Below are positions 23,146 through 50,725 of a stretch of 63,952 nt of DNA, piece after piece. A program made the position numbers and the translations under genes. The notes under the pieces are model-generated. The model worked only from the letters and a program-made list of their open reading frames with translations, searched no databases and was not told the origin of the DNA. Source of the DNA: Amphiscolops sp. MND2022 (taxonomy: Eukaryota); the NCBI GenBank assembly GCA_964187785.1, contig OZ076409.1, positions 40,054,001 to 40,117,952 on the forward strand, given 5' to 3'. The first letter of the stretch is position 1, and every line of letters begins with the position of its first letter.

Positions 23146-23229
23146 CTCTCAGCAAGATAACTCTGTAAAATCCACTGATCTCTTCAACAGAGTCTACAAA
23201 CGTCCACAGTAACATCAAAAAGAATGGGT

Positions 23230-23248: not shown

Positions 23249-23249
23249 C

Positions 23250-31295: not shown

Positions 31296-33109
31296 GTATG
31301 CTTGCTTCAAAACTCCGACGTTTTAGTTGAACACGTTTTCTGAAAACGCCCTCCTTAAGATTATACACCGCAAAATGGTAACAAAATGCGAAATCTTTAG
31401 TTTTTGCTCAGTGAAAATTCTAATTCGACTAATTTCCAAACGTTTTTGCCTGTTCATTCTTTCGGAAAGCATATTCAGAATGACTGTTAAAATCGAAAGT
31501 TAAAAAACGGCGTTATCGAGACACCGATGATCGAACACATTATCCAAGGAGGTTTTTCTTCTGACCCGTAATCTCTGAGGTAATGCCTAATGAAGTTCAG
31601 AAAATTCCAAAAGTCTTCTCTCCGAAATACAAGGTGATATATCTTTTTAAATTGCGATTCGATTTTAAAAAAACTACCGCTGTAATTCGTATCAGAATTT
31701 GAGTGAGCTTTGCTTCTGAGACTTTTTTGTAAAAATGAATTTATTAAAATATTACGCGCCTTGAAATTTTCCGTTTCAGCGTCCTCAGCGTTTTGGTACC
31801 CAGTGTAACTCAGTGTAACCCACAGTCAGATTTTAGAACATCATCTCAGGATTTTAACCTGAAAAGAGCTTCACCGAGTTCATCGAATGGTCGTTAGGAC
31901 TCACTTTTCAACTTCATGTGAGATATTTTGGGGTGTTTTTTTGCTGAAACTAGGAAACATGCCAGCCAGTTTTTCTGAGTTCAAGAGATCTGCAAACTTT
32001 TTTGTGCCATTCCTGGGGTCTTTTCGACCGATATAAAAATACACATCATCTCAACTTGAGAGATTGACCTAGAAAATTCCGGCTTTTTTATTGACCTGAA
32101 ACCACCATAATGCTTTCAGCCACTATTTGCAAGAGCGCAACAAAGAACAGCTGGATTACCGGACTATTTGTTCTTTCTGGCTGCAGCATCTGGAACACTT
32201 TGAGCAGTTCTACCAGATAAACGAGAGTCTCAGTCTCCACAGTCCTCAAGAGGAGATTTATGACGAAACTTGGGATGAGTTATAACTAAATTATAACAAA
32301 ACTCCCTTTTGCCACCGCCATATTAGTGCTCGCAGAGTTGTTAACTAGTTATTAGAAAAATTGGCACAAACAGAGGTTAATCATCAAAAACAACATCAAA
32401 CATTTCATAGTAATTTCAAGGATGCCTCAAATGAAACTAATTCCAGTTATGAATGGTTTGCGAAACTTGCCTTAATCAAGTATCAGAGGTTTCGGAACTA
32501 TCCTTATTATCAGTGGTTTTGGAAGTTTGTCTGCAATGAAACAAGTTTGGCTTCAGAAGAAAAAAATGTCATTTAGTAAGCAATCGAAGGACAACTTTGA
32601 AAAGCGGTTGGAAATTGGAAATTGAAAATTGACAATGCACAAAAATAGATTTAATAGATTTCCGGTGCAATGAGAGTAACTGCTGCTAATTTTAACCCAA
32701 TAGTAGAGAACAATGTCTGACTGGTTGGTATATGGTGATATACGTTTTTCAAATTTTATATTTTACTACAAAAAAGTAGATATATTTTCAAACATCCATC
32801 TCGTTTTCTAAAACCAAAAGTGCAGAACAAGGTAACTCAATTTGCCGAATTTCAGTGCCTCAGAAAATTATGAATTGAGGCCACAAATATCTCGTCAATC
32901 TCTCACAAGTCTAAAATTGGCGCCAAGCTAAAATCTCAAACAGTGCAACGTCTTTTGAATATGCTAAGATGCTGTTTTCATGAAAAGTCTCAAAATCTCA
33001 CACTACTGAAATAAATACAGAGAGAGACCATAGAAACGGAAAAAATTCTCCAATCCGCAGCTTTCAAAACAACCAAATGGGCGGCAATAAAAAAGTTTTT
33101 CGAAGTCTC

Positions 33110-34669
33110 TGTCCCAGGCGTCCGCCTGTGATGGCAACACATACTCAATCTGCCATAGCTACAAGAAAGCAGAACCCTTCACCCTTCCATTAAATTAGAA
33201 AACTTACAAGGAAAACTATTATTGTTGCTCTAAAAGGTCATGTAAAACTCTATATATTTCATTTTGTGCAAGTTATATTATGTAATTCTATGCATTAATA
33301 CGAGTTAATTGGACACCAAGGCGTACAGGTAAAGGAAACGCGTTCAAATGTTTTCTTGCCTGTCGCCTTGGTCCGCAAGTCCGACTAACTCGTCATCCAA
33401 TCATAGCGCAGTGTTATGTAACCTTTACTCGTGCTAGCTTAATAGAATTAAAAGACTAGACAGCTATATGCCGCCTGCTAATAAAGCGCTGGGCTGTACC
33501 AGTCTATTGGACACTGAGTCCGCGCTTTAATTGAGAGTGCTATTCTATCTAGCAGTACTGGTTATGTAATAGATAATCTTTTGATAGCTAATAAAAGGCG
33601 CTATTAGTCCTCAAAGGACTGATTTAATATTTTAGACTTAGTTTGATGGTGTTGCTTTATATGTAATTTGCGCAATATATTTAGAATATATGTAAAATTA
33701 CTATCTATACATGTAATAAGCATTTCATACATGTAATATGTATTTCATACATGTAGCACGTTGCTTAGTATGCATGTAAGCAGTTGCTTGTCCTAACGGA
33801 CTCATGGTCCCACCGCCACATTTGCCGCCAAGAGGGACCTTTGATCTACATGATGTAATGTTGACGTTGCCTGCTATTTATAGATTGTAGCTATATTTAG
33901 AAAGCCTTTAAGGCTATTTTTAGATTATGACCACCATTTTATTGAGTGTCATGCAAATTCAAATATATATAACCGGGACTGGTGGGCCCGGGGACAGAAT
34001 TATCCTGATGATACTTTGATGTGTTACTGTTGCGAATTGTTTATTAAAACTACCCGTTCATTTTCACTTTGCAAGCCCAAGATATTAATTTAAATTCTTG
34101 CCTCTTGCAATAATCTCTTATGCCTTCTACTAGACGTCAGAAAGCCAAAGCTAGGAGATCTAGAGAAATGGACATACTGTCCGACTATGATAACCTAGAT
34201 GTGATGCTGGGAAATGAAAATAACAATCCCATTGAAAGAGAACTAGCTGAAGCAATAGATCAGTCATCGGCCCACGGGGACGGTGATACAAACGTGTACC
34301 ATGAAAATGAGTTTAGAGATTACTTACATGAAAATGAACCTTTGAGACAAAACGAAGTCAGGCAATCCTTTGAAGCCTTTTCAAGTGAGTTTAATCTTAG
34401 ATTATCTCAAGAAATGGAATCTATGATGTCAATAATGCATAGCCAAATAAATAGAGCTATATCGACAGCTATAGCTGAAAGAGTTATTCCAGAAATACAG
34501 AATATTGCAAACTCGATGTCCTCTATGGGACACAGGGACACTGAGGCCAGTTCGTCCCCGAATAGCCAGGAAAACAGGGAAAGCGCACCCGGGCCTAAAA
34601 TAAAAATTGCAAAGAAAGATTCAAGATCTGTAGGTGACTTAAGAGATACCATGGGTCATGGTTCTTACA
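33110..34669 (+). repeat. 5' LTR (1560 bp)
   Basis: Near-identical to 47153-48712 (about 4 substitutions seen by eye); TG...CA termini. Confidence 0.96.
33964..34048 (+). promoter_or_regulatory. Candidate LTR TATA box (33964-33972) and ATTAAA poly(A) signal (34043-34048)
   Basis: TATATATAA followed about 70 nt later by ATTAAA, both upstream of the gag ATG; order fits U3-R-U5. Confidence 0.4.
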
Positions 34670-35808
34670 TGGTGACAGGAGCTACCGACACCCAACCGCA
34701 AATTCCCGAATTTCTGACCGGACGAATCCACTCAATCCCGAACCTAGAGAGACAACAATCTACACACAATATCTCTCTGGACACGACTCTGCCAGCCCCG
34801 GCCCCAGAGGCTCCTGAACCTCCTCAGGACCCGTTTAATAGATTAGCCGACGTATTGGTCAATTTGCAAAACAAACCGCAATCTATGACCATCAGACCCG
34901 TACAAACAACCCCGATGACATTTGATGGGAAAAGTGAGAAATTTGAGCTCTTTGAGGACTTGTTCCATACGATGATCAAAATGCAGCCCACAATGACAGA
35001 ACAAATGAAAATTAATCACTTTCATTCTTTGCTACGAAAGGGAGCATTACAGACATTCAGGAACATAAACTCAATCAACCGTCAAACTCTCGAGGACGTA
35101 CTGGTCATATTCCGGAGGAAATATGTCAAACCGGAATCACAAGCAACAGCAAAGCATAAATGGCACCGATTAACCTTCGACCCAAGTACAATGAAACTAC
35201 CAGACTTCTTGGAAGAACTGAACCAAGGTGCAGAAAAAGCATTTGGGGAAAACGCTAAAAGCATGATCGACAGCTTGTTATACGCGAAATTACCCCCAAA
35301 ATTGAAACGATCTGTCAACATGGCCCGTCTGGAGAATGGCACGTATGAAGAAATAGTAGCTCATCTTGAAAGAGAACTGGAACTCAATGCATTAGAAGAG
35401 TCAGATGATCTGCCAATGGCCACTATGGCCTCGGCGTCCACGAGCCATAACAACTTATTGTCCAATGGTATCAACACAAATAAAGACGCCCAATGCTCAT
35501 ACTGCAAAGCGACAGGTCATTATTACAAAAACTGCCCGAAACTCAAGAAGAAAAAGGAAATGGAGGACAAAGACGGTAAAAAACCTCAACGTCCAACTTA
35601 CCCACCGTGTGACACATGTGGCAAAAAGAACCACCCAACCGAAAGATGCTGGCAAGGCGCTGGCGCCCACCTGCGACCCAAAAGGATGCAGACAGAACAA
35701 AATGACCGAAATGCTATAGACTCCGAAGGAAAGCCTAAAAAAGCAAATGACTCAGAAACGGCTACTTCAAGCCAATCCAATACTAAAAAATCTGATTCAA
35801 AAAACTAA
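34120..35808 (+). CDS. gag: Gag (562 aa), two CCHC zinc knuckles
   Basis: Capsid-like region (FDGKSEKFELF...), CSYCKATGHYYKNC and CDTCGKKNHPTERC (both CX2CX4HX4C), located upstream of pol. Confidence 0.93.
   Translation: MPSTRRQKAKARRSREMDILSDYDNLDVMLGNENNNPIERELAEAIDQSSAHGDGDTNVYHENEFRDYLHENEPLRQNEVRQSFEAFSSEFNLRLSQEMESMMSIMHSQINRAISTAIAERVIPEIQNIANSMSSMGHRDTEASSSPNSQENRESAPGPKIKIAKKDSRSVGDLRDTMGHGSYMVTGATDTQPQIPEFLTGRIHSIPNLERQQSTHNISLDTTLPAPAPEAPEPPQDPFNRLADVLVNLQNKPQSMTIRPVQTTPMTFDGKSEKFELFEDLFHTMIKMQPTMTEQMKINHFHSLLRKGALQTFRNINSINRQTLEDVLVIFRRKYVKPESQATAKHKWHRLTFDPSTMKLPDFLEELNQGAEKAFGENAKSMIDSLLYAKLPPKLKRSVNMARLENGTYEEIVAHLERELELNALEESDDLPMATMASASTSHNNLLSNGINTNKDAQCSYCKATGHYYKNCPKLKKKKEMEDKDGKKPQRPTYPPCDTCGKKNHPTERCWQGAGAHLRPKRMQTEQNDRNAIDSEGKPKKANDSETATSSQSNTKKSDSKN
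34670..34682 (+). promoter_or_regulatory. Primer-binding site TGGTGACAGGAGC (probably tRNA-Leu type)
   Basis: TGG directly after the LTR CA; its complement ends CTCCTGTCA-CCA, close to tRNA-Leu 3' ends. The tRNA identity is tentative. Confidence 0.75.
35799..35805 (+). promoter_or_regulatory. -1 ribosomal frameshift slippery heptamer A AAA AAC
   Basis: X XXY YYZ heptamer in the gag frame immediately before the gag TAA; pol lies in the -1 frame and is open across the site. Confidence 0.8.
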
Positions 35809-35810
35809 TT

Positions 35811-38800
35811 TTGCCACGACTCCAAATACATGACTATATGTCGGTTCGACAATATGTCATTTCAGATCCTCCAATAATCAAATACAGCCAAACAATCAAG
35901 GATACAAAAGGAATTCCCACTGTTGTCTGGCAGCAACAAATGGAAAAAGCCTGTATCCGAACTTATAAAATAGTACATAATGATCGCCCAGACCGATTTT
36001 ACGAAATAGACTATACTAAAGACTTCGAGACTCAATTCCGTCCCTTACCCTTGATCGAAGATTATCACCCTCAATACCCCGATCCTGATTATGGCAAAGA
36101 CCCGTATTGGGACGACGAACTCTACGACAGACAAAAACTCCAGTTTAGACAAGACGAATATCCACCAACGGACGATGAGGATGATCCCCCGATAGTGGAC
36201 AACAAACTATCCAGAGCCCTCATTGAACTTTGGCAGCCAAATTCCGAAGCACTTTTAGAAGAAATCGAGGAAACTCAAGAGCAAGAAGACTTTCACGGCC
36301 CTGACAGCCTTTTAGACGAAACAGCCTTCTTGCACATTTTAGTGGAAGAACAAGGAGAACCGTCATACGTTCCCCTCTCCACCAACCTTGGCCTCAAAAT
36401 CAAAAGGAGGATGCTATATTTCCCAATGGACTTTGGAGAACTAACATTAGATGGTCTCATAGACACTGGGGCCCACTCCAGTGCAATACCAGAAGCTGAC
36501 CTTCGGAAAATACGGCTACTTGCACCCCAATCAATAGTGAAAGAGGGTCCTGCCCCGTCATTCCAAATTATGGTCGCAAATGGAGACCTGGAAACTCCGA
36601 AGAGTACAGTAGAACTGAAGTTCGAAGTAGGGGACATAGAGTTCCATGAAATCTTCATAGTGATGGAAAAATTATCCAGCCCCATAATTGGACTTATGTT
36701 CTTACAAAGAAACCACACAGTCCTAGATATGCGCCAAGGCATACTTAACTTTCCCTTCTTCTCGATGCAATTGAAAACAGCTGACCATAAGTACTCCAAT
36801 GTGATGGAACCTATCCTCAACCCCGAGGATATAACGATTCCCCCAAATGGACGAACAATCATCCCTATCCAATCTCAAATTTATGCGGAAAACGCTGTCA
36901 CTGGAATCTTACAACCCAGTGACCTTCTAAATGAAGAAAATGATATAACATTTTGTGCCGCCATAGTCACATTGGACGAAGGGACTACGAGGATCCATGT
37001 CAACAACTTCACAGATCAGCCCTTTAAACTCAAAAAAGGAATGCACATAGCGAATTTCTCTGTGATGACTCCAGAGCAAATGAAGCATGTTAGGCCAATA
37101 GACCCAGTGTCCACTTGGCACCTACTCAATGAAAATGAAGAAGACGCTATTTATTATATCAGCAGTCTTCTCAAAGCCAACAGGAACAATGACCAATACG
37201 AAAAATACTGGTTTCCAACACCCGAAAACCCAGGGGACGAAGAGTCCCATATTCCAATACAAAAGAGAATTCTTAGAGAATTACGAAACCTGCAAGAAGC
37301 AGAAAAACTCAACCCACAAGACAATGAAGAATCTCGACAAAAATTCCTCAGTAACTTTGACTGGAGGGACTCAATGCTACAACAGCATGAAATCAAACAG
37401 ATAGAAGCGCTATTAGTCGAATTCCACGACATATTTGCCCGTCATAGGTTCGACATTGGTATGAATGAGGAGTTCACGGTCAAATTGACCCCGAAGGACG
37501 ACTCTCCTGCCTACAGCCAGAGCTTACCAACTCCGGTCAATTTAAAAGAGGACATACTGGTCGAATTAGCGTCACTACACAAATATGGTATTATAACAAC
37601 ATTACCATTCTCAAAGTACGCTAGCCCTATCTTTGCACAAAAGAAGCCTAATGGGAAACTACGACTACTGGTAGACCTCAGGAAGATCAACAATCTTATT
37701 TCTGATGATTATATCAACAACAACCATCCAGTCAGCACCTTAACGGACGCTGCTCAACATATGGCCGGAAAGAAACTTTTCTGTAAACTTGACTGTTCGC
37801 AAGCGTACCACTGCCTTCAAATGGCGGACCAACGGTCTATAGAGATGTTGGCCTTCAACTTTGCCAGCCGAACGTTCGCATATCGAAGATTGGCCCAAGG
37901 TTTCAGCAGAGCCTTATCGGCATTCTCCAGTGTTATGAGAGAATATTTGGACCGTGTCATCAAAGCCGATCAATGCGCCCAATACGTGGATGATATTGGC
38001 ATTGCGGCCAACGACGCGGAGCATCTCATTAAAAATCTCAGAGCAACTTTCGAATGCATCCGAGAGGCTGGATTGAAATTAACGATGCATAAATGCCACT
38101 TTGGAGCAACTGAGATTGATTTCTTAGGAAGGACAATCACCCCTGAGGGTGTCAAGCCCCAGAAGGAACGAGTCACACAATTCCTAGAAAAAACGAAATT
38201 CCCAAAATCCAAAAAAGCCTTACAACGTTACCTCGGATTCCTCAATTATTATAGAAACTACATACCGAGGTTATCAGAAAAATTAGTCCCTTTCTTTCAA
38301 CTATTAAAGAAAGACGAAAAGGTCTTAGTCACAACGGAACTGATCGAACAATTCAACGAGATCAATAGAGATTTGGACAGATGCACCCAGCTAGCCCTTA
38401 GGCAGCCCTTGCCAAACCGACAGCTAGTCCTGATGACAGATGCTAGCTTTACAGCAGCCGGATATGCTATACTTACTGAAGATGATCCAAATCAGAAATT
38501 TACCTCAACCAAGAAATCCTATGCGCCTATTGCATATGGTTCAAAAACTTTTACTCCTTCACAACTTAAAATGTCAATTTATGCGAAGGAATTTTTAGCC
38601 ATCTATTACGCCTTCAAAGAATTTGGACATATATTCTGGGGCACACCTAAGCCGGTGATTATCCTCACAGATAACAAATCGGTCACAAGGTTCTTCCAGA
38701 CTAAAATAATACCGCCGCCATTATGGAACGCGTGTGACTTTGTAATTCAGTTCAATTTCACTATAGCGCACATTCCAGGCAAAAACAACACAGCGGCGGA

Positions 38801-40958
38801 CTACCTGTCCCGCATGGAAATGGACCCCACTGAAAAGTTAGTCCTAAAAATCCGAGCGGACGTTGAAACCCAACCCATTGAAGTCAATGTCCAATCAGCC
38901 GGCGTGTCTGAAGAAGAACAAGTGTTCTTTACCGAAGAAGACAATGAAACAGAAGAACAAATTTGGGAAAGGAAAAGACAATCAAAAGCAGGACTCAAGG
39001 TCGACGAGACCGTCATCCAAATAGATACTATATCTGAAAATGTAGTGGATGAAAGTACCAATTTCACCCAGAAACTACGTAGAACCAACCAAATACTACT
39101 AGAACAATCCAAAGATCCGATTTTGCTTCATTTAAAAGCAAAAATTCAAAATGAAGAATACTCTGAGGAAATCCTTCAGCAGGACATTCGGTATAAACAT
39201 TATTTAAATAATTTAGACCGTATAGTCCTCAAGGACGAAATAGTGACCCGACAGTATTACGACGAAACGGGACAAATCAAATACCACCAAATCTTACTAC
39301 CAAAGCACCTGTTGAAAGAACTACTGCAAGCAATACATGGCACGGCACATCGACATCCTGGCATCTCTAAAATGCTGCAAGAGATCCGCCAAAAATACTA
39401 CTACCCTGGCATAGCAAAATACGTTAAAAAATGGGTAGAGGGATGCGAAACGTGCGCTAGAGACAAAAGAGTCCCAAATAATACAAGTACAGCAGAATTG
39501 TTGAACTTGCCCGAATGGGACCTTGGTCCAGAAGATGCCATGCAGATAGACTTATTACCAAACTTACCGACTAGTGGCGGATACCAGACGGTGATGACAG
39601 CTATAGATGTATTCTCAAGGTACTTATTCGCCTACCCGCTAATTGAGGCAACAGCCACGAATGTAGCCAAGGTGATAATTGATATCATGACGAAACATTC
39701 ATATTTACCAACAACTCTCATCACAGACAAAGGGTCCGCATTTACATCGACCATCATAGCTGAGATAACTCAAATTTTGGGTATAACACTCAAATGTGCT
39801 ACTACAAAGCACCCGCAAACAATTGGCAAACTCGAAAGGACGCATGCCTCACTCAAAACAAATTTGAAAATGGCCTCAGGGGAATATCGACGCCAATGGC
39901 ATAAATATTTACCATTAGCAGTACTCAACTACAATACCACATACCACTCTAGTATTGGATGTGAACCGAGTAAAGTCTTCCACGGCCGGATTCCCTATAA
40001 CGTCCTAGACCACAAATTGGGAAATAACCCCAATAAAAATTTTTTGCCAACTACAGAATTTGCGGAGGAAGTACAGCAGAGGACACAAATCCTCATAGAT
40101 CAAACGAAAAAGAACATCATGCAGTCTTATTTGAAATATAAGGACTATTACGACCGAAAGGCAAAGGCTGCCCCGCTTAAAGAAAAGGACTATTGTTTTG
40201 TTCTACAACCTAAAGCGGACAGTCAAGCATCAAAAATTCCATTCAAGGAATACAGGTGGATTGGACCATTCGTCATTCAAAAAGTACTGTCCAACGACAA
40301 TTATATTGTCCGTCGTCTAAATACAAATAAAACTCAAATACTTCATCGCATTAGACTAAAGAAATTTGTCCCGAATGCCCCTTTAGAGGACAAATACGAT
40401 GGAGAAAAACTACAACCCGACAATGAGATAGTAATCCCGCAAGACGATTTGTACACTATCTCATGGGAAGTAGACTTTGAGTACGACTTATTTGAACCGA
40501 GGAAGGAAAATTGGACAGACGTGGCCACACGCCGGCCGACGGACGCCGAGTCCACTAATACGGACAATGACGTTACCGACGAGGAAAGCGCTATCAATGA
40601 AAGCTGCAGCGAGCGCACGACAAGAAATTACGTCACCGAGAACGAACGCGTCAGCAATGAAAGTTACAATGAGCGTACGACAGAATATGACGTTACCGAG
40701 GACGAAATATCCCCGAGAGAGAACAATAGCAGTGACGAACCGTCCCCCCCGACTCAAACGTCACAGCGCACTGAGAATGAAAATGACGTCACTAATGATT
40801 TACAAGATACGGAAAACGTTTCAAACACAGGCGCAGATATTACCGTGCCCGGAATATCAAAAAATGGAAATTCAAATGAAAATTCGAGCCCTAGAGGAGG
40901 GAAATACAATCTTCGACCTAACCCTACCCCCAACTTTACTGATGAATACAGATACTAG
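35811..40958 (+). CDS. pol: Pol polyprotein (protease, RT, RNase H, integrase); probably translated as a Gag-Pol fusion rather than from the listed TTG
   Basis: LIDTGA protease motif; YASP..KKPNGKLRLLVDLRKIN and YVDD RT motifs; TDAS/TDNK RNase H; HHCC zinc finger, D-D-E (QIDL, ITDKG, LERT) and GPF integrase motifs; 1715 codons uninterrupted. Confidence 0.97.
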   Translation: MPRLQIHDYMSVRQYVISDPPIIKYSQTIKDTKGIPTVVWQQQMEKACIRTYKIVHNDRPDRFYEIDYTKDFETQFRPLPLIEDYHPQYPDPDYGKDPYWDDELYDRQKLQFRQDEYPPTDDEDDPPIVDNKLSRALIELWQPNSEALLEEIEETQEQEDFHGPDSLLDETAFLHILVEEQGEPSYVPLSTNLGLKIKRRMLYFPMDFGELTLDGLIDTGAHSSAIPEADLRKIRLLAPQSIVKEGPAPSFQIMVANGDLETPKSTVELKFEVGDIEFHEIFIVMEKLSSPIIGLMFLQRNHTVLDMRQGILNFPFFSMQLKTADHKYSNVMEPILNPEDITIPPNGRTIIPIQSQIYAENAVTGILQPSDLLNEENDITFCAAIVTLDEGTTRIHVNNFTDQPFKLKKGMHIANFSVMTPEQMKHVRPIDPVSTWHLLNENEEDAIYYISSLLKANRNNDQYEKYWFPTPENPGDEESHIPIQKRILRELRNLQEAEKLNPQDNEESRQKFLSNFDWRDSMLQQHEIKQIEALLVEFHDIFARHRFDIGMNEEFTVKLTPKDDSPAYSQSLPTPVNLKEDILVELASLHKYGIITTLPFSKYASPIFAQKKPNGKLRLLVDLRKINNLISDDYINNNHPVSTLTDAAQHMAGKKLFCKLDCSQAYHCLQMADQRSIEMLAFNFASRTFAYRRLAQGFSRALSAFSSVMREYLDRVIKADQCAQYVDDIGIAANDAEHLIKNLRATFECIREAGLKLTMHKCHFGATEIDFLGRTITPEGVKPQKERVTQFLEKTKFPKSKKALQRYLGFLNYYRNYIPRLSEKLVPFFQLLKKDEKVLVTTELIEQFNEINRDLDRCTQLALRQPLPNRQLVLMTDASFTAAGYAILTEDDPNQKFTSTKKSYAPIAYGSKTFTPSQLKMSIYAKEFLAIYYAFKEFGHIFWGTPKPVIILTDNKSVTRFFQTKIIPPPLWNACDFVIQFNFTIAHIPGKNNTAADYLSRMEMDPTEKLVLKIRADVETQPIEVNVQSAGVSEEEQVFFTEEDNETEEQIWERKRQSKAGLKVDETVIQIDTISENVVDESTNFTQKLRRTNQILLEQSKDPILLHLKAKIQNEEYSEEILQQDIRYKHYLNNLDRIVLKDEIVTRQYYDETGQIKYHQILLPKHLLKELLQAIHGTAHRHPGISKMLQEIRQKYYYPGIAKYVKKWVEGCETCARDKRVPNNTSTAELLNLPEWDLGPEDAMQIDLLPNLPTSGGYQTVMTAIDVFSRYLFAYPLIEATATNVAKVIIDIMTKHSYLPTTLITDKGSAFTSTIIAEITQILGITLKCATTKHPQTIGKLERTHASLKTNLKMASGEYRRQWHKYLPLAVLNYNTTYHSSIGCEPSKVFHGRIPYNVLDHKLGNNPNKNFLPTTEFAEEVQQRTQILIDQTKKNIMQSYLKYKDYYDRKAKAAPLKEKDYCFVLQPKADSQASKIPFKEYRWIGPFVIQKVLSNDNYIVRRLNTNKTQILHRIRLKKFVPNAPLEDKYDGEKLQPDNEIVIPQDDLYTISWEVDFEYDLFEPRKENWTDVATRRPTDAESTNTDNDVTDEESAINESCSERTTRNYVTENERVSNESYNERTTEYDVTEDEISPRENNSSDEPSPPTQTSQRTENENDVTNDLQDTENVSNTGADITVPGISKNGNSNENSSPRGGKYNLRPNPTPNFTDEYRY

Positions 40959-41194: not shown

Positions 41195-42345
41195 TTAAGA
41201 TTTAGAAGTTCCAGGAGCGTTTGCATCACTGGACTTTGCGGCTTCAGTCTCACCAGCTGCCCGAAAGCCAACTTTCTTGCCTTTACCAGGGGACAGCTTA
41301 CGTTGTTTCCCCCCTTCTTTGGACGAGGAATTGGAAGCGGACTCGATGTCAGGACGGACACTCTTGCCCAGAGCCTTGTAGACTGCAATTAAAGTTTTAT
41401 GCAAATTAGCCTTGCCGAAACTGTCTACGTGTGACCAAGGGTCTCCTGGGACGTTGCCAATACTGAACCGGAATTCCAGATCTTTGAAGGTACCCAGGGA
41501 AGCTTCTGTAGTGCACACAGCCACTGAATTAGCAACATTAGCTAGGTAAGACTGTGCAGGCATGATGACATCGAAAAGTCTACTTCGGGGATCATTACAG
41601 TCAACTCCAGAGAATTTGATGGCTGGGAGCTCTGGCAACTTAGAAGTCAGGCACAGACAACTCAACTGGAAGATGTAGAACAGATGCTTCCGCAACTTCA
41701 ATTCAGGCATACCAATCAGAAAGGCTACCATGTCGGTGAAGACCTCTGGGGTATCTTTGACTCCAGAATTGGCTTGACGGAAAAACTCCACGAAATCGAT
41801 GTACTCATCTCGGGCATCAGTCTCTGGGGAATTCTCTAACCAGCCTCGCAAACTAAAGGATCTGTACAGAGCGGAGAAACAATATGTGGCTTGCTCAAGC
41901 GGCAGACTCAGGAGGGCTACTGGATCGAAACTGCCCAGACCTCTTACGATACCAGCATTCAAGCTAATGTCGGCAAGGAAGACTTTCAAAAGATGGACGA
42001 GGTAACCTCGGGCCTTGGTGGCGAAATCGTCCCGAAGGGCCTCAGCTGCTGTCTCCGTCTCTTCAGGCGTCAGTTGCTTCTCGCTATAAATTCTCCTGAC
42101 ACGAGCATGGCAGGCGGCATCCAAATTTTCTTTGAGCTTCAAGCGACTCAAGAAATCGCGGTTAGACAGTTGTCGCCAATTCTGTCCTTGCAAATCTCCC
42201 AGCGACTTCCAGTCCAGAATATCAGGCACGTGTCTGGGAAGTAGTGCTCGACCTGCCAACTTGCGAATGAAAGTATGGAACTCTCGGAAGGTGTAGAAGC
42301 CACTGTCCCTTCGCTGTGCAAACTGACTCTCGAAGCTCTTGGTGT
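41195..42345 (-). CDS. Antisense cargo gene, terminal coding exon 4 (1151 nt)
   Basis: Acceptor TTTTGTTTTCCAG|AC in phase 1 joins the 390-codon ORF; minus-strand AATAAA at 41012-41017 downstream. Confidence 0.82.
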
Positions 42346-42495
42346 CTGGAAAACAAAACATTACCATCCTGAAGGGTCTTTATGACACCATTAGACCTAG
42401 CATGTCAATCTACTATATCTAGCATGAGCCTCAAATAGTGGTAAGACAAACTGGGACCATGAGGTCCGTAGACAAGAGAAAACCAATATACTAAC

Positions 42496-42712
42496 AATCG
42501 CGGACAATTCGTGCGAAGAACTCCAGCTTGATGGTGAAGAAATCATCAGCTATGATTTCCCACTCGAGGCTTTGGGGCTTGTTTTTGACCCCCTGGTGGA
42601 CCTGTGGTGGTGCTATCTTCGTCAAATGTTGGTGTACAGACTTCCAGTTCGCAATTAGTTCCGAACATATGGCAGGTACAGCGGCAATCTCCAGGTGATA
42701 TGTAGTCATCGC
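42496..42712 (-). CDS. Antisense cargo gene, coding exon 3 (217 nt)
   Basis: Acceptor TTGTAG|GCG ATG in phase 0; donor GAT T|GTTAGT (phase 1) removes the in-frame stop. Confidence 0.78.
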
Positions 42713-42780
42713 CTACAATCAACATGCTTATTGGAGGCAATTCAAAACTGGACCTACAGTCTTACGGACAGTGACCTTAC

Positions 42781-43266
42781 CTTGACGAATTCTGGCATCA
42801 GGGCGGCCCAGGGCTGTCCACCGCAACCGTCCAAGAAGGTAATCAGAAATTTCAACTGAGAGAAGAAGCTGATACTGCCAAACACGCTGCCCCATCGTTC
42901 ATGCATCAGGTCTGGCAGACAAAGAGCATCAAATCGGAAAGGGTACTCAATCCCTTTTTGGAAGAGGCAAGAACGTTCAAGAAGAGGAATCACCTCTGCA
43001 GGACACCCGGACACGCTCACGATCTGAGGTTGTGTTGATAGGACGGACAAGAGGCGGGAAAGTACCAACAGGAAACCAGCTGCAGGCTCTGAAGCAGTCC
43101 GGTATCGTAGCAAACGGACGACATTGAGGGATTCGCCCTTCCAGAACCGGATCGAGATAAAGCTGTAGGTGCCTCGCATTTCAAACTCCAGAGAGTACTG
43201 ACCCGTGACACTGACTTGATAGGCGATGTCAGCGATGCCACAGAGGAAGATGTGATGAAAGATCGT
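42781..43266 (-). CDS. Antisense cargo gene, coding exon 2 (486 nt)
   Basis: Acceptor TTTTGTTTTAG|ACG, open in phase 0 into the MRGTYSF ORF; donor AAG|GTAAGG. Confidence 0.82.
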
Positions 43267-43351
43267 CTAAAACAAAATTAACCAGGATGAAAATGAGTCG
43301 GGTCTACGTTAGGACTAAAGGACCCTGAGGCTAAAAACCGCCGATACTTAC

Positions 43352-45181
43352 TGTCAGTTTGGAGGAGCCCCAATCGTAAGGAGAGAACAGACTCTGATGA
43401 TTGGTAACAGTGCCAATCTGTGACCATAGCGACTCAAGGACGTTTAGATCTCCACAACGGGGAGCGAAGAGAGCAACCATGGAGATTTGAACACACAGTC
43501 TGATCTCCTCCTGCCCAGCGATGGAGCCAAGGCCAGCCATATGGTCCTCGTAGAAGGGGTTACTGCTGCCAGTTTCGACCAAAGGGACTTGCATAAAGAA
43601 AGGCTTCTCTTTCTCAAGCTCCAAGGGGGTCAACAATTGGCCCTTCTTCCCTCTGACTTCGTACACAGTCCGGCCAGTCACCTTGTCCTTCTTCCTTAGG
43701 TGCTCATACCTCCAGCGCTGATCTTTGCGAAAATGCGACTCACTCTGGAAATGGCGGACAATCTCCCGGGCTCCTTTTGAGAAAATGGAAACATTCGTCT
43801 TACATATCTGGCAGTAGAACTTATGTTTGTTGTGTTCTGGGTCAAGGGGGCCAGTGACGAATGTCCGAGTCCACTGAATTCCTTTGAAATAGGCTTCTTT
43901 CATTACTTTGCCTGTGCGTACTGGAAGCCGGCGACGTTTGCGAGGTGGACTTGAGGCAGAAGCTTGGTCAGCGGTCAATGTGGCTAGAGGCTCATAGTCA
44001 GTCGAGCAGAATCCTGGACTAGGGACTTGCTGTGCGGATGAAGGGCCAGGTGTTGATGTCGAACCTTGATCTGGAGGACTTGGAGGAGGATTGATGCTCA
44101 GATCCTTGCTGGTTCTCTGAGAATTGATGACGAACTCATCTTCCGAACTGAGGGCTCCGCTAGTGTACCCCTCAGTCCCAACGTCACTGTCTTCCGCACC
44201 TGATCCAAGGCTGCCGCTCTGCTTACGGAAGATCTTGATTCGCTGCTTCCCGGATCCTTGAGGAGTACCTTGGGAGCGAATTCCTGCCCGGATCGCTTCT
44301 TCCAGCATGTTCTTCATTTGATGAAGGGAAGAAGTAATGGTCTCCGTGGAGACGGCACGCAAGATGGAATGGACTTGCCCCTGATTGAAGGCTACAGTCG
44401 CATGGCCTACCGGGAGGATACATGGGTTGGTCTCATTGAAATGCTGATTTATGAGCGTTCTAGCAGAGGCAGATAAAGGTCTGGTTGGACTGAAGGGCTT
44501 CGGAGAAGATGTGCCAGGTAACTCAGCCGAGGTGGATGGCTTAACATTCTCATGGGTCTCAGTCCCAGTGGAGCTTAGCGCATCCAGTGCAATCATGAAA
44601 GGTGGTTCCTTGATGGTCTCAGCACCGGAACTATCGAGTATTTCTTCAGCGTCGCTGGTATCAGTTTGGAAATAGTCCGCCTTGGTGACGGAAAATCCAG
44701 CCTCACTGACAGCATCATCGCCCCGCTCAATCTCAGCCTCAGGAGACTCCTTGTCTTGCGACCCAGTCGTGACCTGGGGAATTGGTTCCGACTCAGAAGT
44801 TTTCTCAGCGATTGACTTTGGTGCATTGTCTACAATGGCAGATGTAGTAGGAGGCAAGAAGGAGATGTCAAGTCCAAGGCTCTGGCAACCCAAAGTCTGC
44901 AATTGACGGTCAATGTAAGCGGAAATGCTTTCATCCGTAGAAGGGCTTGGGGTCGGAGCAGTCTTATCAGGATCATCTCCTGGCGGCACAAGTTGCGTGG
45001 ACTCAGGGTCAACAGGGATCGAAGTGGCCTGACTAGTACCAGCTTCTTTGGGGATGGCAACTTCTTCTTCAGTCATGAATGCAGTAGCGGTGGCAGGAAC
45101 AATATCGTTTTGCTCTTCGGACGACATGTCTAAACAGAAAGAGATAAACTCAAGCGGATAACTTCCTGAGAAAGAGTCCAT
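43352..45181 (-). CDS. Antisense cargo gene, coding exon 1 (S/P/E-rich N-terminus, NLS-like PPRKRRR, BED-like zinc finger); start at 45181 or more likely 45127
   Basis: 616-codon ORF ending at a perfect donor ACA|GTAAGT (phase 0); contains W..FYCQICKTNVSIFSKGAREIVRHFQSESH. Confidence 0.85.
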
Positions 45182-46401
45182 TACCGCGTTAAAAAATCTT
45201 CCGGAAGTAGATATTTCGAACTCAAGTGAATACTTGTGTTATGGGACAGGAAGTACGTGAATGAAATGAGAGCCCTGATCAAGCCTCAGATTAATTCAAT
45301 ACTAAAATAGAAACAAAACCTGAAAAGCTACTGACCTGTTTGAAAGTAGAGAAGGATGTCTTGAGAAGGGAGTACTGTGTACAGTTAGACTGGTGGTCAC
45401 TGAATTGGAAGCTGAGCGATCAGTAGAGAAGGATGACGAAGCTGGACTGGTGACAATACAGCAACAGTTGTAGGGAGAAGACAAATTCTTCTTTGATGAA
45501 GGACAAGAAAGATTGCTGGAGATGAATTAGCAAAAGGGACTCAGTGTCGATTGTCCTAGGATGACCCAAGAAATCCACAAAAGACGTAATTGGAAGAAAT
45601 TACAAATGACTACTTTAAATGAATACTGAGTAAATACGACTAGAAGACTAAAAGACTAGAGATGATTAAATACTGGACGATAATACAAAGAGTAACTGGA
45701 AAGAATTTGAAAATAATGAATTGAAAAGAGAATTGGCAATGTGACAAGATGTCAAAGTTGGAGTTCGTGGCTATACAATTTGGTGTCAAATTTACAAGAT
45801 ATTTACAAGTTACACTATTATGTGGATAGAGTCTGCCAGCGATATCTACATTCTTCCATTTATCTTATTTCGAAACTTTACCATTTTATTAAATATTTCA
45901 TGATTTTACCAGGATTTTATTTAATTTCAGGTCATTTTATATTATTCCTTATATGGATTTACGACCTTGGGAAGCCATTTTTATTCAAGAGAAATTTTGC
46001 TGCATTCCTATTGGTTGATCAGAAACGCTGATGGACGGCGTGGCCGTCTGCCATAGCTTCACCCTCTTGAAACTTTTAAGTGCTTGTTGAGTGTTAATAA
46101 ACACTTGAAGCGACGCCCTTAATATGGAAGTGTTGATAGAGTTGATGTAAGTCAACAAAGCCTCAGTCGGCATTTTCAAAGAAGACCGAGCGGCTAGTTG
46201 AAAGAAACCGAAGAAAAGGAATTTTGTTATTGAGGATTTGGTGAGCCGAGAAGGGCAAAATCCCGGGAAACTGAAAAGAAAATCCCGCTAGTCGACGGAG
46301 GAAGAAATCGCCATTGTTTCAGTTTCAATCTCGAAATTCAGCTGCTTATCAAATTTCAAAACCTAAAACTAACAACTTCCAAGATTGCCAAAAAAGCAAT
46401 A

Positions 46402-47241
46402 ATGAATAAATTCCTTGCAAGTCAATTTGACTCAGAGTCCCCTGAGTATTACCCTGAAGATTTTCAAGGAGCAGCCCCGGGAGACGGTGTTATTTGCATC
46501 TCTAGTGACGACGACATGGAGTGCGCAAGCAGGGCGTCCGTGGATGACTTGGAGAGCCTGTCTGATGACGACGAAATGGCCCTCTTGGCCCAATGTGTGG
46601 AAAGACAACTGGACTTGCCGTCGACTTCAACAGGAATTCAAATCCCCTCAGCTTCAGGAAAGCAAGAAGTGACCCGAGCTACTACTCCCAGGCTTGCATA
46701 CGTGCCGGGACCGATGTTCGACGCTGGGTACTTTGAGCTGGGAATGGGCAGAGGACCAATTGCGAGGGATTCACGGCTTAGAAACGACCATCCAATTAAC
46801 TTGTGCAGCCAACTGATCCCGATGGTCGACACACCCATGTCGCCCCCAGCAATTGATAAATATCCTACGGGCGACTGGAGGATAACCGCAGAAGCCACTT
46901 CTAGCAGCTCCCAACGACACGAAGGTGGTATTCACTTCCGTGGACCGACCGCAGCAGATAACCCGTATATTACAGGGTGCACAGATTGTCTCGTATGTGG
47001 AAAATCTGTGGAACAGATTCAGGACGAAGCGGTCATAGATTATCTTCACAAGACGGCCGTCCGAGGAGAATCCGCCGAGCAGTTCAATGCGAGACGACTA
47101 GCCTTCTTGGAAGGAATGAAGGTGGGCCGCTTTATGCTTATTCCAGGGGGAGTGTCCCAGGCGTCCGCCTGTGATGGCAACACATACTCAATCTGCCATA
47201 GCTACAAGAAAGCAGAACCCTTCACCCTTCCATTAAATTAG
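46402..47241 (+). CDS. Extra sense ORF (279 aa), acidic SIM-like N-terminus and Cys cluster; function unknown
   Basis: ATG-initiated ORF with GC content above the flanks; VICISSDDD and CTDCLVC motifs; crosses the PPT and ends 89 nt inside the 3' LTR. Confidence 0.75.
   Translation: MNKFLASQFDSESPEYYPEDFQGAAPGDGVICISSDDDMECASRASVDDLESLSDDDEMALLAQCVERQLDLPSTSTGIQIPSASGKQEVTRATTPRLAYVPGPMFDAGYFELGMGRGPIARDSRLRNDHPINLCSQLIPMVDTPMSPPAIDKYPTGDWRITAEATSSSSQRHEGGIHFRGPTAADNPYITGCTDCLVCGKSVEQIQDEAVIDYLHKTAVRGESAEQFNARRLAFLEGMKVGRFMLIPGGVSQASACDGNTYSICHSYKKAEPFTLPLN
47145..47152 (+). promoter_or_regulatory. Polypurine tract
   Basis: AGGGGGAG directly abutting the TG of the 3' LTR. Confidence 0.75.
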
Positions 47242-48712
47242 AAAACTTACAAGGAAAACTATTATTGTTGCTCTAAAAGGTCATGTAAAACTCTATATAT
47301 TTCATTTTGTGCAAGTTATATTATGTAATTCTATGCATTAATACGAGTTAATTGGACACCAAGGCGTACAGGTAAAGGAAACGCGTTCAAATGTTTTCTT
47401 GCCTGTCGCCTTGGTCCGCAAGTCCGACTAACTCGTCATCCAATCATAGCGCAGTGTTATGTAACCTTTACTCGTGCTAGCTTAATAGAATTAAAAGACT
47501 AGACAGCTATATGCCGCCTGCTAATAAAGCGCTGGGCTGTACCAGTCTATTGGACACTGAGTCCGCGCTTTAATTGAGAGTGCTATTCTATCTAGCAGTA
47601 CTGGTTATGTAATAATTAATCTTTTGATAGCTAATAAAAGGCGCTATTAGTCCTCAAAGGACTGATTTAATATTTTAGACTTAGTTTGATGGTGTTGCTT
47701 TATATGTAATTTGCGCAATATATTCAGAATATATGTAAAATTACTATCTATACATGTAATAAGCATTTCATACATGTAATATGTATTTCATACATGTAGC
47801 ACGTTGCTTAGTATGCATGTAAGCAGTTGCTTGTCCTAACGGACTCATGGTCCCACCGCCACATTTGCCGCCAAGAGGGACCTTTGATCTACATGATGTA
47901 ATGTTGACGTTGCCTGCTATTTATAGATTGTAGCTATATTTAGAAAGCCTTTAAGGCTATTTTTAGATTATGACCACCATTTTATTGAGTGTCATGCAAA
48001 TTCAAATATATATAACCGGGACTGGTGGGCCCGGGGACAGAATTATCCTGATGATACTTTGATGTGTTACTGTTGCGAATTGTTTATTAAAACTACCCGT
48101 TCATTTTCACTTTGCAAGCCCAAGATATTAATTTAAATTCTTGCCTCTTGCAATAATCTCTTATGCCTTCTACTAGACGGCAGAAAGCCAAAGCTAGGAG
48201 ATCTAGAGAAATGGACATACTGTCCGACTATGATAACCTAGATGTGATGCTGGGAAATGAAAATAACAATCCCATTGAAAGAGAACTAGCTGAAGCAATA
48301 GATCAGTCATCGGCCCACGGGGACGGTGATACAAACGTGTACCATGAAAATGAGTTTAGAGATTACTTACATGAAAATGAACCTTTGAGACAAAACGAAG
48401 TCAGGCAATCCTTTGAAGCCTTTTCAAGTGAGTTTAATCTTAGATTATCTCAAGAAATGGAATCTATGATGTCAATAATGCATAGCCAAATAAATAGAGC
48501 TATATCGACAGCTATAGCTGAAAGAGTTATTCCAGAAATACAGAATATTGCAAACTCGATGTCCTCTATGGGACACAGGGACACTGAGGCCAGTTCGTCC
48601 CCGAATAGCCAGGAAAACAGGGAAAGCGCACCCGGGCCTAAAATAAAAATTGCAAAGAAAGATTCAAGATCTGTAGGTGACTTAAGAGATACCATGGGTC
48701 ATGGTTCTTACA
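47153..48712 (+). repeat. 3' LTR (1560 bp)
   Basis: Copy of 33110-34669, preceded by the purine tract AGGGGGAG and followed by the TSD GTCTC. Confidence 0.96.
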
Positions 48713-48771
48713 GTCTCACCTTGCCGAAAAAGTTTGAAGATGGTTCCCTCTTGTTTCTTCTCGATGCGTAA
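48163..48771 (+). CDS. 3'-LTR copy of the Gag N-terminus (183 aa) reading out into flanking DNA (202 aa total)
   Basis: Identical to Gag residues 1-183, then diverges exactly at the LTR end (GSY-SLTL versus GSY-MVTG). Expression unknown. Confidence 0.5.
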   Translation: MPSTRRQKAKARRSREMDILSDYDNLDVMLGNENNNPIERELAEAIDQSSAHGDGDTNVYHENEFRDYLHENEPLRQNEVRQSFEAFSSEFNLRLSQEMESMMSIMHSQINRAISTAIAERVIPEIQNIANSMSSMGHRDTEASSSPNSQENRESAPGPKIKIAKKDSRSVGDLRDTMGHGSYSLTLPKKFEDGSLLFLLDA

Positions 48772-49159
48772 AATAGTAAAACTATCCGTCATGAAATTAT
48801 AGAACGTTTGAGATGTCCTTCCTAAACAACCGGGTACGTTATACACGAATTTCATATTTTATGGCCGAAAGATTTTAGGTTAGACTCGTTAATTATTTCA
48901 AAATCTGCAATTAGTGTGACTCAATCTGAAAAGATGAGAACACCAGCGTTAGCTATATTCGAACCCCCAATAAGAGCCTGATTAGAAGCAAAAAATAAAA
49001 AAAAGCTAAAACTGATTTTTTGACTCAATATCCGATTTATAATATTATATATCCGTTATATCCGAAAAAGCGCTTATTTCGACGTATGAGGAATTTATCA
49101 CTACATATATGTTATATCCGGAAAGGCAATTCTTATAGCAGTTCCATTTGAGAACAACC

Positions 49160-49230
49160 GGTGCCGAGTGGGCTTCTAACCCGCTGACAGTTTCCCAACC
49201 CACCCGCTAACCACTTGGTCATCAAAACGC
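49160..49230 (-). repeat. Degenerate tRNA-like (SINE head-like) segment, one per triplication unit
   Basis: Minus strand TGACCAAGTGG (A-box-like) and GGTTAGAAGCCC (degenerate B box); no full cloverleaf. Confidence 0.3.
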
Positions 49231-49849
49231 ATATTCCCTTCCTTCAGTGCAAATCATAAAAATAGTGACCTTTACAAACAGTGACAGCTGGAGGAGAAAA
49301 ACTTATCTTGTTGCAAATTTTATTCAAAATGCGTCGACAACAAAAATTCTCCTTGGATCTTTTATTGCAATAAATAAAATAGAATATATTATTTTGAAAT
49401 ATTAGAAATAGAAATAAATATTTTAAAAGTAAATTAATTTTGAATTATTTTAACAATTACTTCCGCACATCCAACTATGTAAAATAATAACCAATGGGAG
49501 CAATATTACTGATTGTGGTGTAAGCAAACAATGCACACAATTAATGACGTTAATTGCCTCAGTCCAAACTTCGCTAAATAGTCCAAGCAAGCGAAGCAAG
49601 GATAACAACATTACAGTGCACAGGCAAGCTTTTCGCTGCTTTTCGTGGAATCCGGAACACGAAAATTGAGAAAAGTCGTGGAATCCAGGACAAAATTTCT
49701 CTTTGATGTTAAGCGTGTCTTGGATTCCACGACAGTGCTTGTTCTGGATTCCACGCCAACACTGCTGCTATAATGACACTTTTGCCGCTGCTCTCTGATT
49801 GGTCCGCTGATTTTGAGTAATCATTTTTGGAAAGGTAGAAAAATTTAAA

Positions 49850-50725
49850 TTAATTCAATTTTATATCAAAGGAAATTGTTTTGACTGACACGAAAAATCC
49901 CAAAGTACGAATAGAGATACTCGTGACTGGTACCAAAATTAAAGCATGTCATCAAATAATGGCAGATTGTGATGATCTGGCAGTTTCTTCAAAACTGGTA
50001 CTAAACTGAAAAATACGAATATTTGTGCTATATAATATGCATTTTGCATGATCATTATTTGAAAGGAAAAGAACTTCAATTAAATCAATTTTATATCAAA
50101 AAAAATTGTTTTGATTAACACGAAAAATCCCAAAGTACGAATAGAGATACTGGTGACTGGTACCAAAAATGAAGCTTGTCATTAAAAAGTGGCAGATTTT
50201 GATGATCTGGCAGTTTCTTCAAAACTGGTACTAAACTGAAAAATACGAATATTTGTGCTATATAATATGCATTTTGCATGATCATTATTAGAAAGGCAAA
50301 AGAACTTGAATTAAATCAAGTTTATATCAATGGAACTTGTTTTGATCGACACGAAAAATCCTAGAAGTTCGAAAAGAGATACTCGTGACTGGTACCAAAA
50401 TAAAAGCATGTCATCAAATAATGGCAGATTGTGATGATCTGGCAGTTTGTTCAAAACTGGTACTAAACTGAATAGTACGAATATTTGTGTAATATAATAT
50501 TCATTTTGCATGATCATTATTAGAAAGGCAGAAGAACTTGAATTGAATCAATCTTATATCAAAGGAAATTGTTTTTGATTGACACGAAAAATCCAAGAAG
50601 TACGAATAGAGATACTCGTGACTGGTACGAAAAGTGAAGCATGTCATTAAAAAATGGCAGATTGTGATGATCTGGCAGTTTGTTCAAAACTGGTACTAAA
50701 CTGAAAAACCTAAAAATTTTGTGTG
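49850..50725. repeat. About four diverged ~230-bp tandem subrepeats (also about 52596-53470 and 55347-56220)
   Basis: The motif ttatatcaa..gacacgaaaaatc..gtgactggtac..gatgatctggcagttt..aaaactggtactaaactgaa recurs with a period of about 230. Confidence 0.9.

What the first reader, a model, noticed from the sequence alone, without database searches (positions are those of the whole stretch)
46402..47241. Extra sense ORF with SUMO-interacting-like motif that reads through the PPT into the 3' LTR
Seen: a 279-aa ORF in the env position without an obvious signal peptide or TM segment. It has VICISSDDD and LESLSDDDE (hydrophobic core plus Ser/acidic run) and a CTDCLVC cluster. The PPT encodes Gly-Gly and the last ~29 codons are in the LTR. 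Known: V/I-x-V/I cores followed by S/D/E are typical SIMs, and SUMO is used in animal transposon silencing. Inference: candidate counter-silencing protein. Together with gag, both internal LTR junctions are spanned by coding sequence.
Basis: partly seen in the sequence, partly recalled or inferred. Interest (0 to 1): 0.72.

Follow-up and report, generated by a model that had tools for sequence, protein, structure and literature searches.

The report
Retrotransposon accessory gene with SUMO-binding motif
A young, intact jumping gene carries an extra gene with no named relatives, whose protein keeps a SUMO-binding-like motif across very distant copies and runs into the element's end repeat; it may help the element handle the host's silencing machinery, but binding and function are untested.

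Summary
Real and conserved; function inferred. The 279-aa ORF lies in a young, intact Ty3/gypsy element (LTRs 4 mismatches in 1,560 bp, 5-bp target duplication). It crosses the PPT, and its last 89 nt lie in the 3' LTR; gag starts 550 nt inside the 5' LTR. A profile finds 493 representative proteins, with no Pfam, PDB or fold match. One distant DNA copy shows coding selection, even inside the LTR (pN 0.12, pS 0.65). Published SIM patterns occur in 23 of 24 divergent lineage representatives (shuffle maximum 9) and in 0 of 102 proteins of the neighbouring antisense family. One clade lost the first core, and 3 of its 4 members carry a reversed SIM. Corrections: LESLSDDDE fits no published SIM pattern; Gly-Gly at the PPT holds in only 8 of 21 lineages; a probably spliced antisense gene lies between pol and this ORF. 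Best reading: a mostly disordered SUMO-reading adaptor with a small Cys-rich domain, placed like HIV nef but not env-like. SUMO binding is likely (about 0.7); counter-silencing specifically is about 0.4. No expression or binding data; host not identified.

The parts
33105..33109 (.). Left target-site duplication GTCTC
33110..34669 (+). 5' LTR, 1,560 bp, TG...CA; holds the last codons of the ORF without a start and the first 550 nt of gag
34120..35808 (+). gag, 562 aa; starts inside the 5' LTR and reads through the LTR end and PBS; weak DUF1759 and zinc-knuckle hits
34670..34687 (+). PBS-like stretch starting TGG directly after the 5' LTR (primer tRNA not identified; right end approximate)
35838..40958 (+). 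pol, 1,706 aa: protease, dUTPase, RT, RNase H, integrase (Ty3/gypsy order)
41195..42367 (-). Antisense gene, last open segment (390 aa); 102 homologue clusters; no Pfam or PDB match
42754..43266 (-). Antisense gene, middle open segment; begins exactly at an in-phase splice acceptor
43331..45181 (-). Antisense gene, first segment (616 aa): Ser/Thr/Pro-rich N-terminus, basic RKRRR patch, weak C2H2-like finger; donor at 43351 in phase with acceptor at 43267 (85-nt intron predicted)
45182..46401 (.). 1.2-kb spacer between the head-to-head antisense gene and the ORF; possible internal promoter or splice-acceptor region (not shown)
46402..47241 (+). The finding: 279-aa accessory ORF (P0001)
46489..46515 (+). 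Site 1: type-a SIM pattern VICI followed by SSDDD (aa 30-38), in a predicted disordered stretch
46564..46611 (+). Site 2: conserved amphipathic helix aa 55-70; its start fits the reversed SIM pattern here and is a beta-branched reversed SIM in the clade that lost site 1
46789..46848 (+). Conserved HPIxxC ... [DE][TS]PxSPP block (aa 130-149); candidate metal ligand C135 and proline-directed phosphosites
46984..47187 (+). Conserved C-terminal domain (aa 195-262): CxxC, helical hairpin 203-241, SQAxACDG with C257; candidate Zn site (inferred)
47145..47152 (+). Polypurine tract AGGGGGAG, inside the ORF
47153..48712 (+). 3' LTR; first 89 nt are the end of the ORF
48713..48717 (.). Right target-site duplication GTCTC

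Best explanation
The ORF is a true accessory gene of a large Ty3/gypsy lineage. It encodes a soluble protein of about 30 kDa: a disordered acidic N-terminus with a SUMO-interacting motif whose flanking serines are likely CK2 sites, an amphipathic helix, a proline-directed phosphosite block, and a small Cys-rich C-terminal domain that probably binds zinc and a partner. Most likely it is an adaptor that binds SUMOylated chromatin factors at copies of the element and blunts SUMO-dependent transcriptional silencing, by competing with SIM-bearing repressors or by bringing an activating partner. The zinc-finger antisense protein of the same element could supply sequence specificity. Shown: ORF, position, coding selection, conservation of motif and domain. 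Inferred: expression, nuclear location, SUMO binding (about 0.7), zinc binding, the partner, and the counter-silencing direction.
For: Family: 75 homologue clusters among 615 candidates; 493 representatives at E<=0.001. Coding selection against L001, one pair, 244 codons: pS 0.83, pN 0.45; C-terminal part pN 0.29; first 11 codons inside the LTR pS 0.65, pN 0.12; no overlapping antisense frame over 115 aa explains it. SIM: published patterns (PMC4086084, passages) in 23 of 24 hand-picked lineage representatives, type a in 20 of 24, against shuffle means of 2.2 and 3.5 and maxima of 7 and 9 in 1,000 rounds; 0 of 102 antisense-family proteins and none in gag, pol or the antisense segments. S34, S35 and D36 are among the best-kept N-terminal columns (23, 22 and 21 of 24; median 9). 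Five proteins whose best profile stretch starts after position 95 (P0198, P0219, P0246, P0254, P0278) all carry a SIM pattern. A clade (support 100/99) lost the site-1 core; 3 of its 4 members have a reversed SIM, one reading DSDIEVI, close to the SUMO-binding DSEVEIV of PMC12751080 (passages). The motif lies in a low-pLDDT stretch. Background: SUMO recruits SetDB1/Wde for piRNA-guided silencing in flies (10.1101/533091, passages); viral SIM proteins counter nuclear defences (PMC8616421, passages).
Against: A SIM gives no direction: SetDB1 and Wde, which silence, use SIMs. The consensus is degenerate and many predicted SIMs are not functional (PMC8616421); the type-a pattern had 52% precision in the GPS-SUMO benchmark. 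With my stricter pattern only 6 of 12 proteins under 45% identity matched. Lineage representatives were hand-picked and are related, so they are not independent. The reversed pattern at site 2 also occurs in 5 main-clade proteins, where the region is predicted helical, so the turnover story is only suggestive. In the one DNA pair, the 12 codons around the SIM have pN 0.53. There is no basic nuclear-localisation patch, no recognised DNA-binding, RING or enzyme domain and no SUMO acceptor consensus. The host is not identified, so its silencing system is unknown.
Confidence: 0.4

Rival explanations
1. Gene-expression factor that works like Rev/CERV or a viral transactivator: the acidic N-terminus and helix 55-70 form an activation or export-factor-binding module, and the SIM only places it in nuclear bodies or is a look-alike CK2 motif for another partner.
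For: 18 Asp/Glu in the first 70 residues with spaced hydrophobic residues; a conserved amphipathic helix; the element has a predicted intron and many splice-like sites; Cer1 encodes a phosphorylated export protein (PMC10309623, abstract).
Against: No arginine-rich RNA-binding patch (23 Lys/Arg in 279); forward and reversed SIM patterns in different clades fit a SUMO groove better than a helix-binding site.
Confidence: 0.2
2. Integration or nuclear tether: the C-terminal domain binds integrase or Gag and the SIM steers new copies to SUMO-rich heterochromatin, doing the job a chromodomain does in other gypsy elements (chromodomain role recalled).
For: No chromodomain hit in pol; this copy sits in a repeat-dense window; conserved SIM and small folded domain.
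Against: No evidence of contact with integrase or Gag; one insertion site says little; insertion bias could not be measured because no genome was held.
Confidence: 0.17
3. Self-restraint factor: the protein recruits SUMO-dependent co-repressors to the element's own LTR and limits copy number.
For: SIMs recruit silencing complexes; self-control strategies of transposons are discussed in PMC6719617 (passages).
Against: The family is abundant and recently active: clusters of 128-163 near-identical proteins and 99.7% identical LTRs.
Confidence: 0.13
4. Env substitute or small fusogen for cell-to-cell spread.
For: Sense ORF just upstream of the 3' LTR; env-free spread through a small membrane protein exists in fly elements (10.1101/2025.03.14.642691, abstract and section 7).
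Against: No TM-like segment (maximum 19-residue hydropathy 1.07), acidic N-terminus, mostly disordered model.
Confidence: 0.04
5. Not a working gene: a chance or decayed ORF whose conserved end only reflects DNA constraint on the PPT and LTR end.
For: Val/Leu-Ser at the junction is what an LTR starting TG-T would force (21 of 21 lineages with the motif); broken and short copies are common (27 of 90 listed cluster members; most of the 150 listed hits are fragments).
Against: 0 of 2,000 shuffles give such an ORF; silent changes far exceed amino-acid changes, also inside the LTR; motifs 600 nt upstream of the PPT are kept at 25-45% overall identity.
Confidence: 0.02

Closest known systems
HIV-1 nef (gene position)
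   Same: Sense accessory gene that contains the PPT and att site and overlaps U3 of the 3' LTR (PMC11076291, passages).
   Different: No sequence match of the family profile to PDB chains; starts Met-Asn, not Met-Gly (nef myristoylation recalled); the element has no env; gag also starts 550 nt inside the LTR.
Additional ORFs between pol and the 3' LTR of gypsy elements (plant Retand/Grande/RIRE2; bdelloid ORF3)
   Same: Long pol-to-3'LTR region with antisense and sense extra ORFs, mostly of unknown, possibly regulatory function (PMC11963269 and PMC7264820, passages; PMC5408684, abstract).
   Different: No TRP28, esterase, exonuclease or env match in Pfam for this ORF or the antisense segments; a SIM or a read-through into the LTR is not mentioned in the passages I saw.
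Viral SIM proteins (HSV-1 ICP0, KSHV K-bZIP and K-Rta, VZV ORF61)
   Same: Phosphorylatable SIM used by a parasite to deal with SUMO-based nuclear defence (PMC8616421, passages; ORF61 from the search listing).
   Different: No RING or bZIP domain found here; no homology shown; function here untested.
VANC anti-silencing proteins of VANDAL DNA transposons
   Same: Transposon-encoded accessory protein that lifts silencing of its own family (PMC6719617, passages).
   Different: Plant DNA transposons acting on DNA methylation; no homology found; 'SUMO' occurs 0 times in the Arabidopsis TE-product atlas (PMC13547354, term search).
CERV of Cer1 and sORF1 of MDG1-group elements
   Same: Nuclear accessory proteins of animal gypsy elements (PMC10309623, abstract; 10.1101/2025.03.14.642691, section 7).
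   Different: sORF1 lies upstream of gag; CERV comes from a spliced mRNA and exports RNA; homology with either was not tested because their sequences were not on hand.

Membership tests
Ty3/gypsy LTR retrotransposon | pol order protease-RT-RNase H-integrase | tested here: met
   RT closest to foamy-virus, caulimovirus-type and Ty3 entries in PDB (organisms partly recalled from entry names)
Ty3/gypsy LTR retrotransposon | Paired TG...CA LTRs, target-site duplication, PBS and PPT | tested here: met
SUMO-interacting motif, type a | [PILVM][ILVM]x[ILVM] followed by three D/S/E | tested here: met
   VICISSD at aa 30; 20 of 24 lineage representatives, 72 of 87 full-length proteins
SUMO-interacting motif, type a | Accessible, disordered context | tested here: met
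   pLDDT below 50 at aa 29-34; a prediction only
SUMO-interacting motif, type a | Binds the SUMO groove; binding lost on core mutation | not testable with these tools
SUMO-interacting motif (second motif LESLSDDDE) | Fits one of the three published SIM patterns | tested here: not met
   only the adjacent DDEMALL fits the reversed pattern, and it is predicted helical
env / env-like or sORF2-FAST fusogen | Signal peptide and/or transmembrane segment | tested here: not met
   hydropathy scan, maximum 1.07
env / env-like or sORF2-FAST fusogen | Homology to a fusion glycoprotein | tested here: inconclusive
   no Pfam, PDB or BFVD match
Lentiviral Nef | Gene overlaps the PPT and U3 | tested here: met
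Lentiviral Nef | N-terminal Met-Gly myristoylation site (recalled) | tested here: not met
   protein starts MNKF; no Gly at position 2 in the aligned homologues
Lentiviral Nef | Nef core fold | tested here: inconclusive
   not among fold matches; models only partly confident
SUMO-targeted ubiquitin ligase (ICP0/RNF4 type) | RING domain | tested here: not met
   only four well-kept Cys, spread over aa 135-257; no RING hit in 105 members
Transposon anti-silencing protein (VANC type) | Expression lifts silencing of the cognate family | not testable with these tools
   needs experiment
CERV / Rev-like export factor | Needed for export of unspliced element RNA; homology to CERV | not tested
   no CERV sequence on hand

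The most novel reading that the evidence does not exclude
An animal gypsy lineage has evolved, independently of retroviruses, a two-gene head-to-head counter-defence cassette: an antisense zinc-finger protein that finds the element's own DNA and a nef-positioned SIM adaptor that intercepts SUMO-dependent silencing there. It would be a retrotransposon protein that targets the SUMO step of transposon silencing, of which my searches found no described case, and its motif turnover across dozens of subfamilies would record an arms race with the host.
Probability: 0.25. Interest if true: 0.85.

Novelty: new variant of a known kind. Interest (0 to 1): 0.58.

Why it matters
Few transposon proteins are known to counter silencing, and the most convincing case named in PMC6719617 (passages) is a plant DNA transposon. 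SUMO is a hub of piRNA-guided silencing in flies. A small, easily expressed retrotransposon protein with a conserved SIM makes the question of whether animal retrotransposons fight back at the SUMO step directly testable. Whatever its function, it is a large protein family with no Pfam, PDB or fold match. The element also has coding sequence across both inner LTR junctions, so the U3 end, U5 end, PPT and PBS all evolve under protein constraint.

Tried and rejected
No whole genome was held, so intact versus broken copies and genome-wide dN/dS could not be counted. Pfam: 0 families for P0001; among 105 members no family hit more than 3, best E 0.0038. PDB sequence profile: one chance-level hit, E 0.76. 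ESM Atlas: no usable hit, whole protein or C-terminal part. Fold searches: only generic helical hairpins, best Z 5.9 (rmsd 2.3, 48 aligned) and 5.1 (rmsd 2.6, 46 aligned); BFVD 0 matches at E<=0.001; none of this shows a new fold. Homodimer of residues 125-279 with zinc: no verdict, score 0.29 against a mark of 0.32. Longer fused forms: none among 8,000 candidates, weak evidence. RNA runs: no RNA holder listed. More DNA copies: 1 locus from metagenome contigs, none from viral contigs or genome contigs. Conserved upstream promoter: rejected, 80 of 1,000 shuffles scored as well. Rfam: 0 matches in the element. Antisense gene as a hAT-derived gene: only my impression of the finger; no Pfam or PDB support. 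Earlier findings of this scan: nothing returned. Gly-Gly as a family feature: rejected, 8 of 21. Literature searches for a prior description listed none; subscription journals, Repbase and supplementary files were not seen and could hold one.

Full report
Observation. The ORF is as described: 46402-47241, plus strand, 279 aa, with the three quoted motifs. It belongs to one Ty3/gypsy element at 33110-48712. The LTRs are 1,560 bp, begin TG, end CA and differ at 4 positions; a 5-bp target duplication flanks them; a TGG-starting PBS-like stretch follows the 5' LTR. pol has protease, dUTPase, RT, RNase H and integrase in gypsy order. The 3' LTR begins inside codon 251, so 89 nt of the ORF lie in it, and the 8-nt purine run before it is coding. 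gag begins 550 nt inside the 5' LTR and reads through the PBS. The ORF is not next to pol: 5.4 kb with a probably spliced antisense gene lie between, head-to-head with the ORF across 1.2 kb.

Is it a gene? None of 2,000 base shuffles of the region gave an ORF this long. A single-sequence search found 75 homologue clusters among 615 candidates, 37-96% identical. A profile found 493 representatives at 50% clustering, of which 150 were listed, many of them fragments. All looked-up members came from ENA or JGI assemblies and none bore a name. Of 90 listed members of six clusters (15 each, from clusters of 27-163), 63 are at least 95% of full length; this counts called genes only and overstates intactness. 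One distant DNA copy was found, L001. Over 244 aligned codons pS is 0.83 (saturated) and pN 0.45; 57 of 84 identical residues use different codons; codons 194-248 have pN 0.29; the first 11 codons inside the LTR have pS 0.65 and pN 0.12. No antisense frame longer than 115 aa overlaps the ORF in either copy. The protein is under selection, including the part in the LTR. This rests on one pair, and the LTR edge in L001 is inferred from a G-rich run followed by TGT in the same codon phase, since that contig has no second LTR.

Is the read-through general? In 21 of 24 lineage representatives the junction motif is present (three are truncated), and in all 21 it reads Val or Leu, then Ser, which is what an LTR starting TG-T in this phase would encode. 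The overlap is therefore probably family-wide, but that is inferred from proteins. Gly-Gly occurs in only 8 of the 21.

The motif. In this protein alone a SIM-like hit is unremarkable: 7.5% of N-terminal shuffles give one. Conservation carries the case. Using three published patterns (PMC4086084, passages), 23 of 24 hand-picked lineage representatives carry a SIM and 20 of 24 the type-a pattern; shuffles gave means of 2.2 (whole) and 3.5 (40-residue blocks) and maxima of 7 and 9 in 1,000 rounds; 80 of 87 full-length proteins match; 0 of 102 proteins of the antisense family and none of gag, pol or the antisense segments do. My own stricter pattern, which leaves out Pro in the first position, gave 76 of 87, 15 of 21 below 60% identity and 6 of 12 below 45%. 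Five proteins whose best profile stretch lay outside the N-terminus all have a SIM pattern, so the result is not only a product of the search. One clade (100/99) keeps Ser-Ser/Leu-Asp but has lost the hydrophobic core; 3 of its 4 members have a reversed SIM about 20 residues downstream, and P0254 has a type-a motif elsewhere. This looks like compensation, but the reversed pattern at that site also occurs in 5 main-clade proteins, where the model is helical. LESLSDDDE fits no pattern. The flanking serines amid acidic residues are the kind CK2 phosphorylates to raise SIM affinity (PMC12751080, passages). Limits: the consensus is degenerate (PMC8616421, passages), and the type-a pattern had 52% precision in the GPS-SUMO test.

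The rest of the protein. The model is mostly disordered (mean pLDDT 62.5, pTM 0.30), with a helix at 55-70 and a confident hairpin at 203-241. Among 105 aligned members, C135 (68 of 76), C196 (95 of 101), C199 (97 of 104) and C257 (98 of 102) are kept, with H130, H178 and a [DE][TS]PxSPP block. A zinc site is a reasonable inference, not shown. There is no TM-like segment and no Pfam, PDB, Atlas or fold match.

How it most likely works. The anatomy is that of an adaptor: a short linear motif and a helix in a disordered arm, a phosphorylation block, and a small folded domain, with no enzyme or DNA-binding domain. SUMO binding is likely, about 0.7. What it does with SUMO is open. In flies SUMO recruits SetDB1/Wde through SIMs for piRNA-guided silencing (10.1101/533091, passages), and viruses use SIM proteins against nuclear defence. 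An abundant, recently active family that keeps such a motif most simply uses it in its own favour, so I put counter-silencing first (0.4). The antisense zinc-finger protein could give family specificity; nine shared contig lengths hint that the two genes travel together, but no contact is shown. Rivals: expression or export factor (0.2), integration tether (0.17), self-restraint (0.13), env substitute (0.04), not a gene (0.02). How the ORF is expressed is unknown; an internal promoter and splicing are both possible, and upstream conservation with L001 was not significant.

Comparison. The position copies that of HIV nef, which contains the PPT and att site and overlaps U3 (PMC11076291, passages), but nothing suggests homology. 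Extra ORFs between pol and the 3' LTR are known in plant and rotifer gypsy elements (PMC11963269 and PMC7264820, passages; PMC5408684, abstract). Nuclear accessory proteins are known in Cer1 and MDG1-group elements, and an anti-silencing protein in VANDAL DNA transposons (PMC6719617, passages). So the kind is known; this protein family and its SIM were not found in eight searches, which miss subscription journals, Repbase and supplements. The host is not identified. The gag start reminds me of acoel predicted proteins (recalled, untested); acoel genomes are LTR-rich (10.1101/2022.08.27.505549, passages), which is compatible but no evidence of origin.

Verdict. A real, selected, unnamed accessory gene with a well-conserved SIM-type motif and a nef-like position. 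New variant of a known kind. Interest 0.58; 0.85 if it proves to be a counter-silencing cassette (probability about 0.25).

Noticed in passing
window 41195-45181 (-): A probably spliced antisense gene of about 1,150 codons in three open segments, with a basic patch and a weak C2H2-like finger; first intron (85 nt) in phase; the join to the last segment is unresolved. Its last segment has 102 homologue clusters and no Pfam or PDB match. Nine contig lengths, including 8,599 and 12,850, are shared between its hit list and that of the sense ORF, a rough sign that they travel together.
   Followed up: partly
window 33110-34669 and 48163-48771: The LTR holds the first 183 codons of gag, so the 3' LTR copy opens a 202-aa ORF that runs into flanking DNA; the ATG at codon 184 is formed by the last LTR base and the PBS.
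   Followed up: partly
window 3311-5262: A decayed relative: gag residues 259-446 match at 32%, and gag residues 67-142 match downstream at 43%, as expected if its 3' LTR also held the gag start. No match to the sense ORF profile there.
   Followed up: partly
window 35838-40958: pol carries a dUTPase domain between protease and RT, as some bdelloid lineages do (abstract).
   Followed up: no
window 17683-25235: Two direct repeats of about 1,986 bp (98% identical) flank overlapping minus-strand ORFs of 335 and 622 aa with no clear Pfam match; looks like a non-autonomous LTR element; a 65% identical copy of the repeat lies near 30003-31254.
   Followed up: no
window 48741-56987: Three tandem units of about 2.75 kb (98% identical), each with three internal repeats of about 231 bp, start 28 bp after the 3' LTR.
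   Followed up: no
window 8050-12658: Two tandem units of about 2.3 kb, 98% identical.
   Followed up: no
window 47523, 47633, 48007, 48489, 48642: AATAAA sites lie both upstream (47523, 47633) and downstream (48489, 48642) of a TATA-like box (48007) in the LTR; the sense ORF could use an early poly(A) site of its own. Untested.
   Followed up: no
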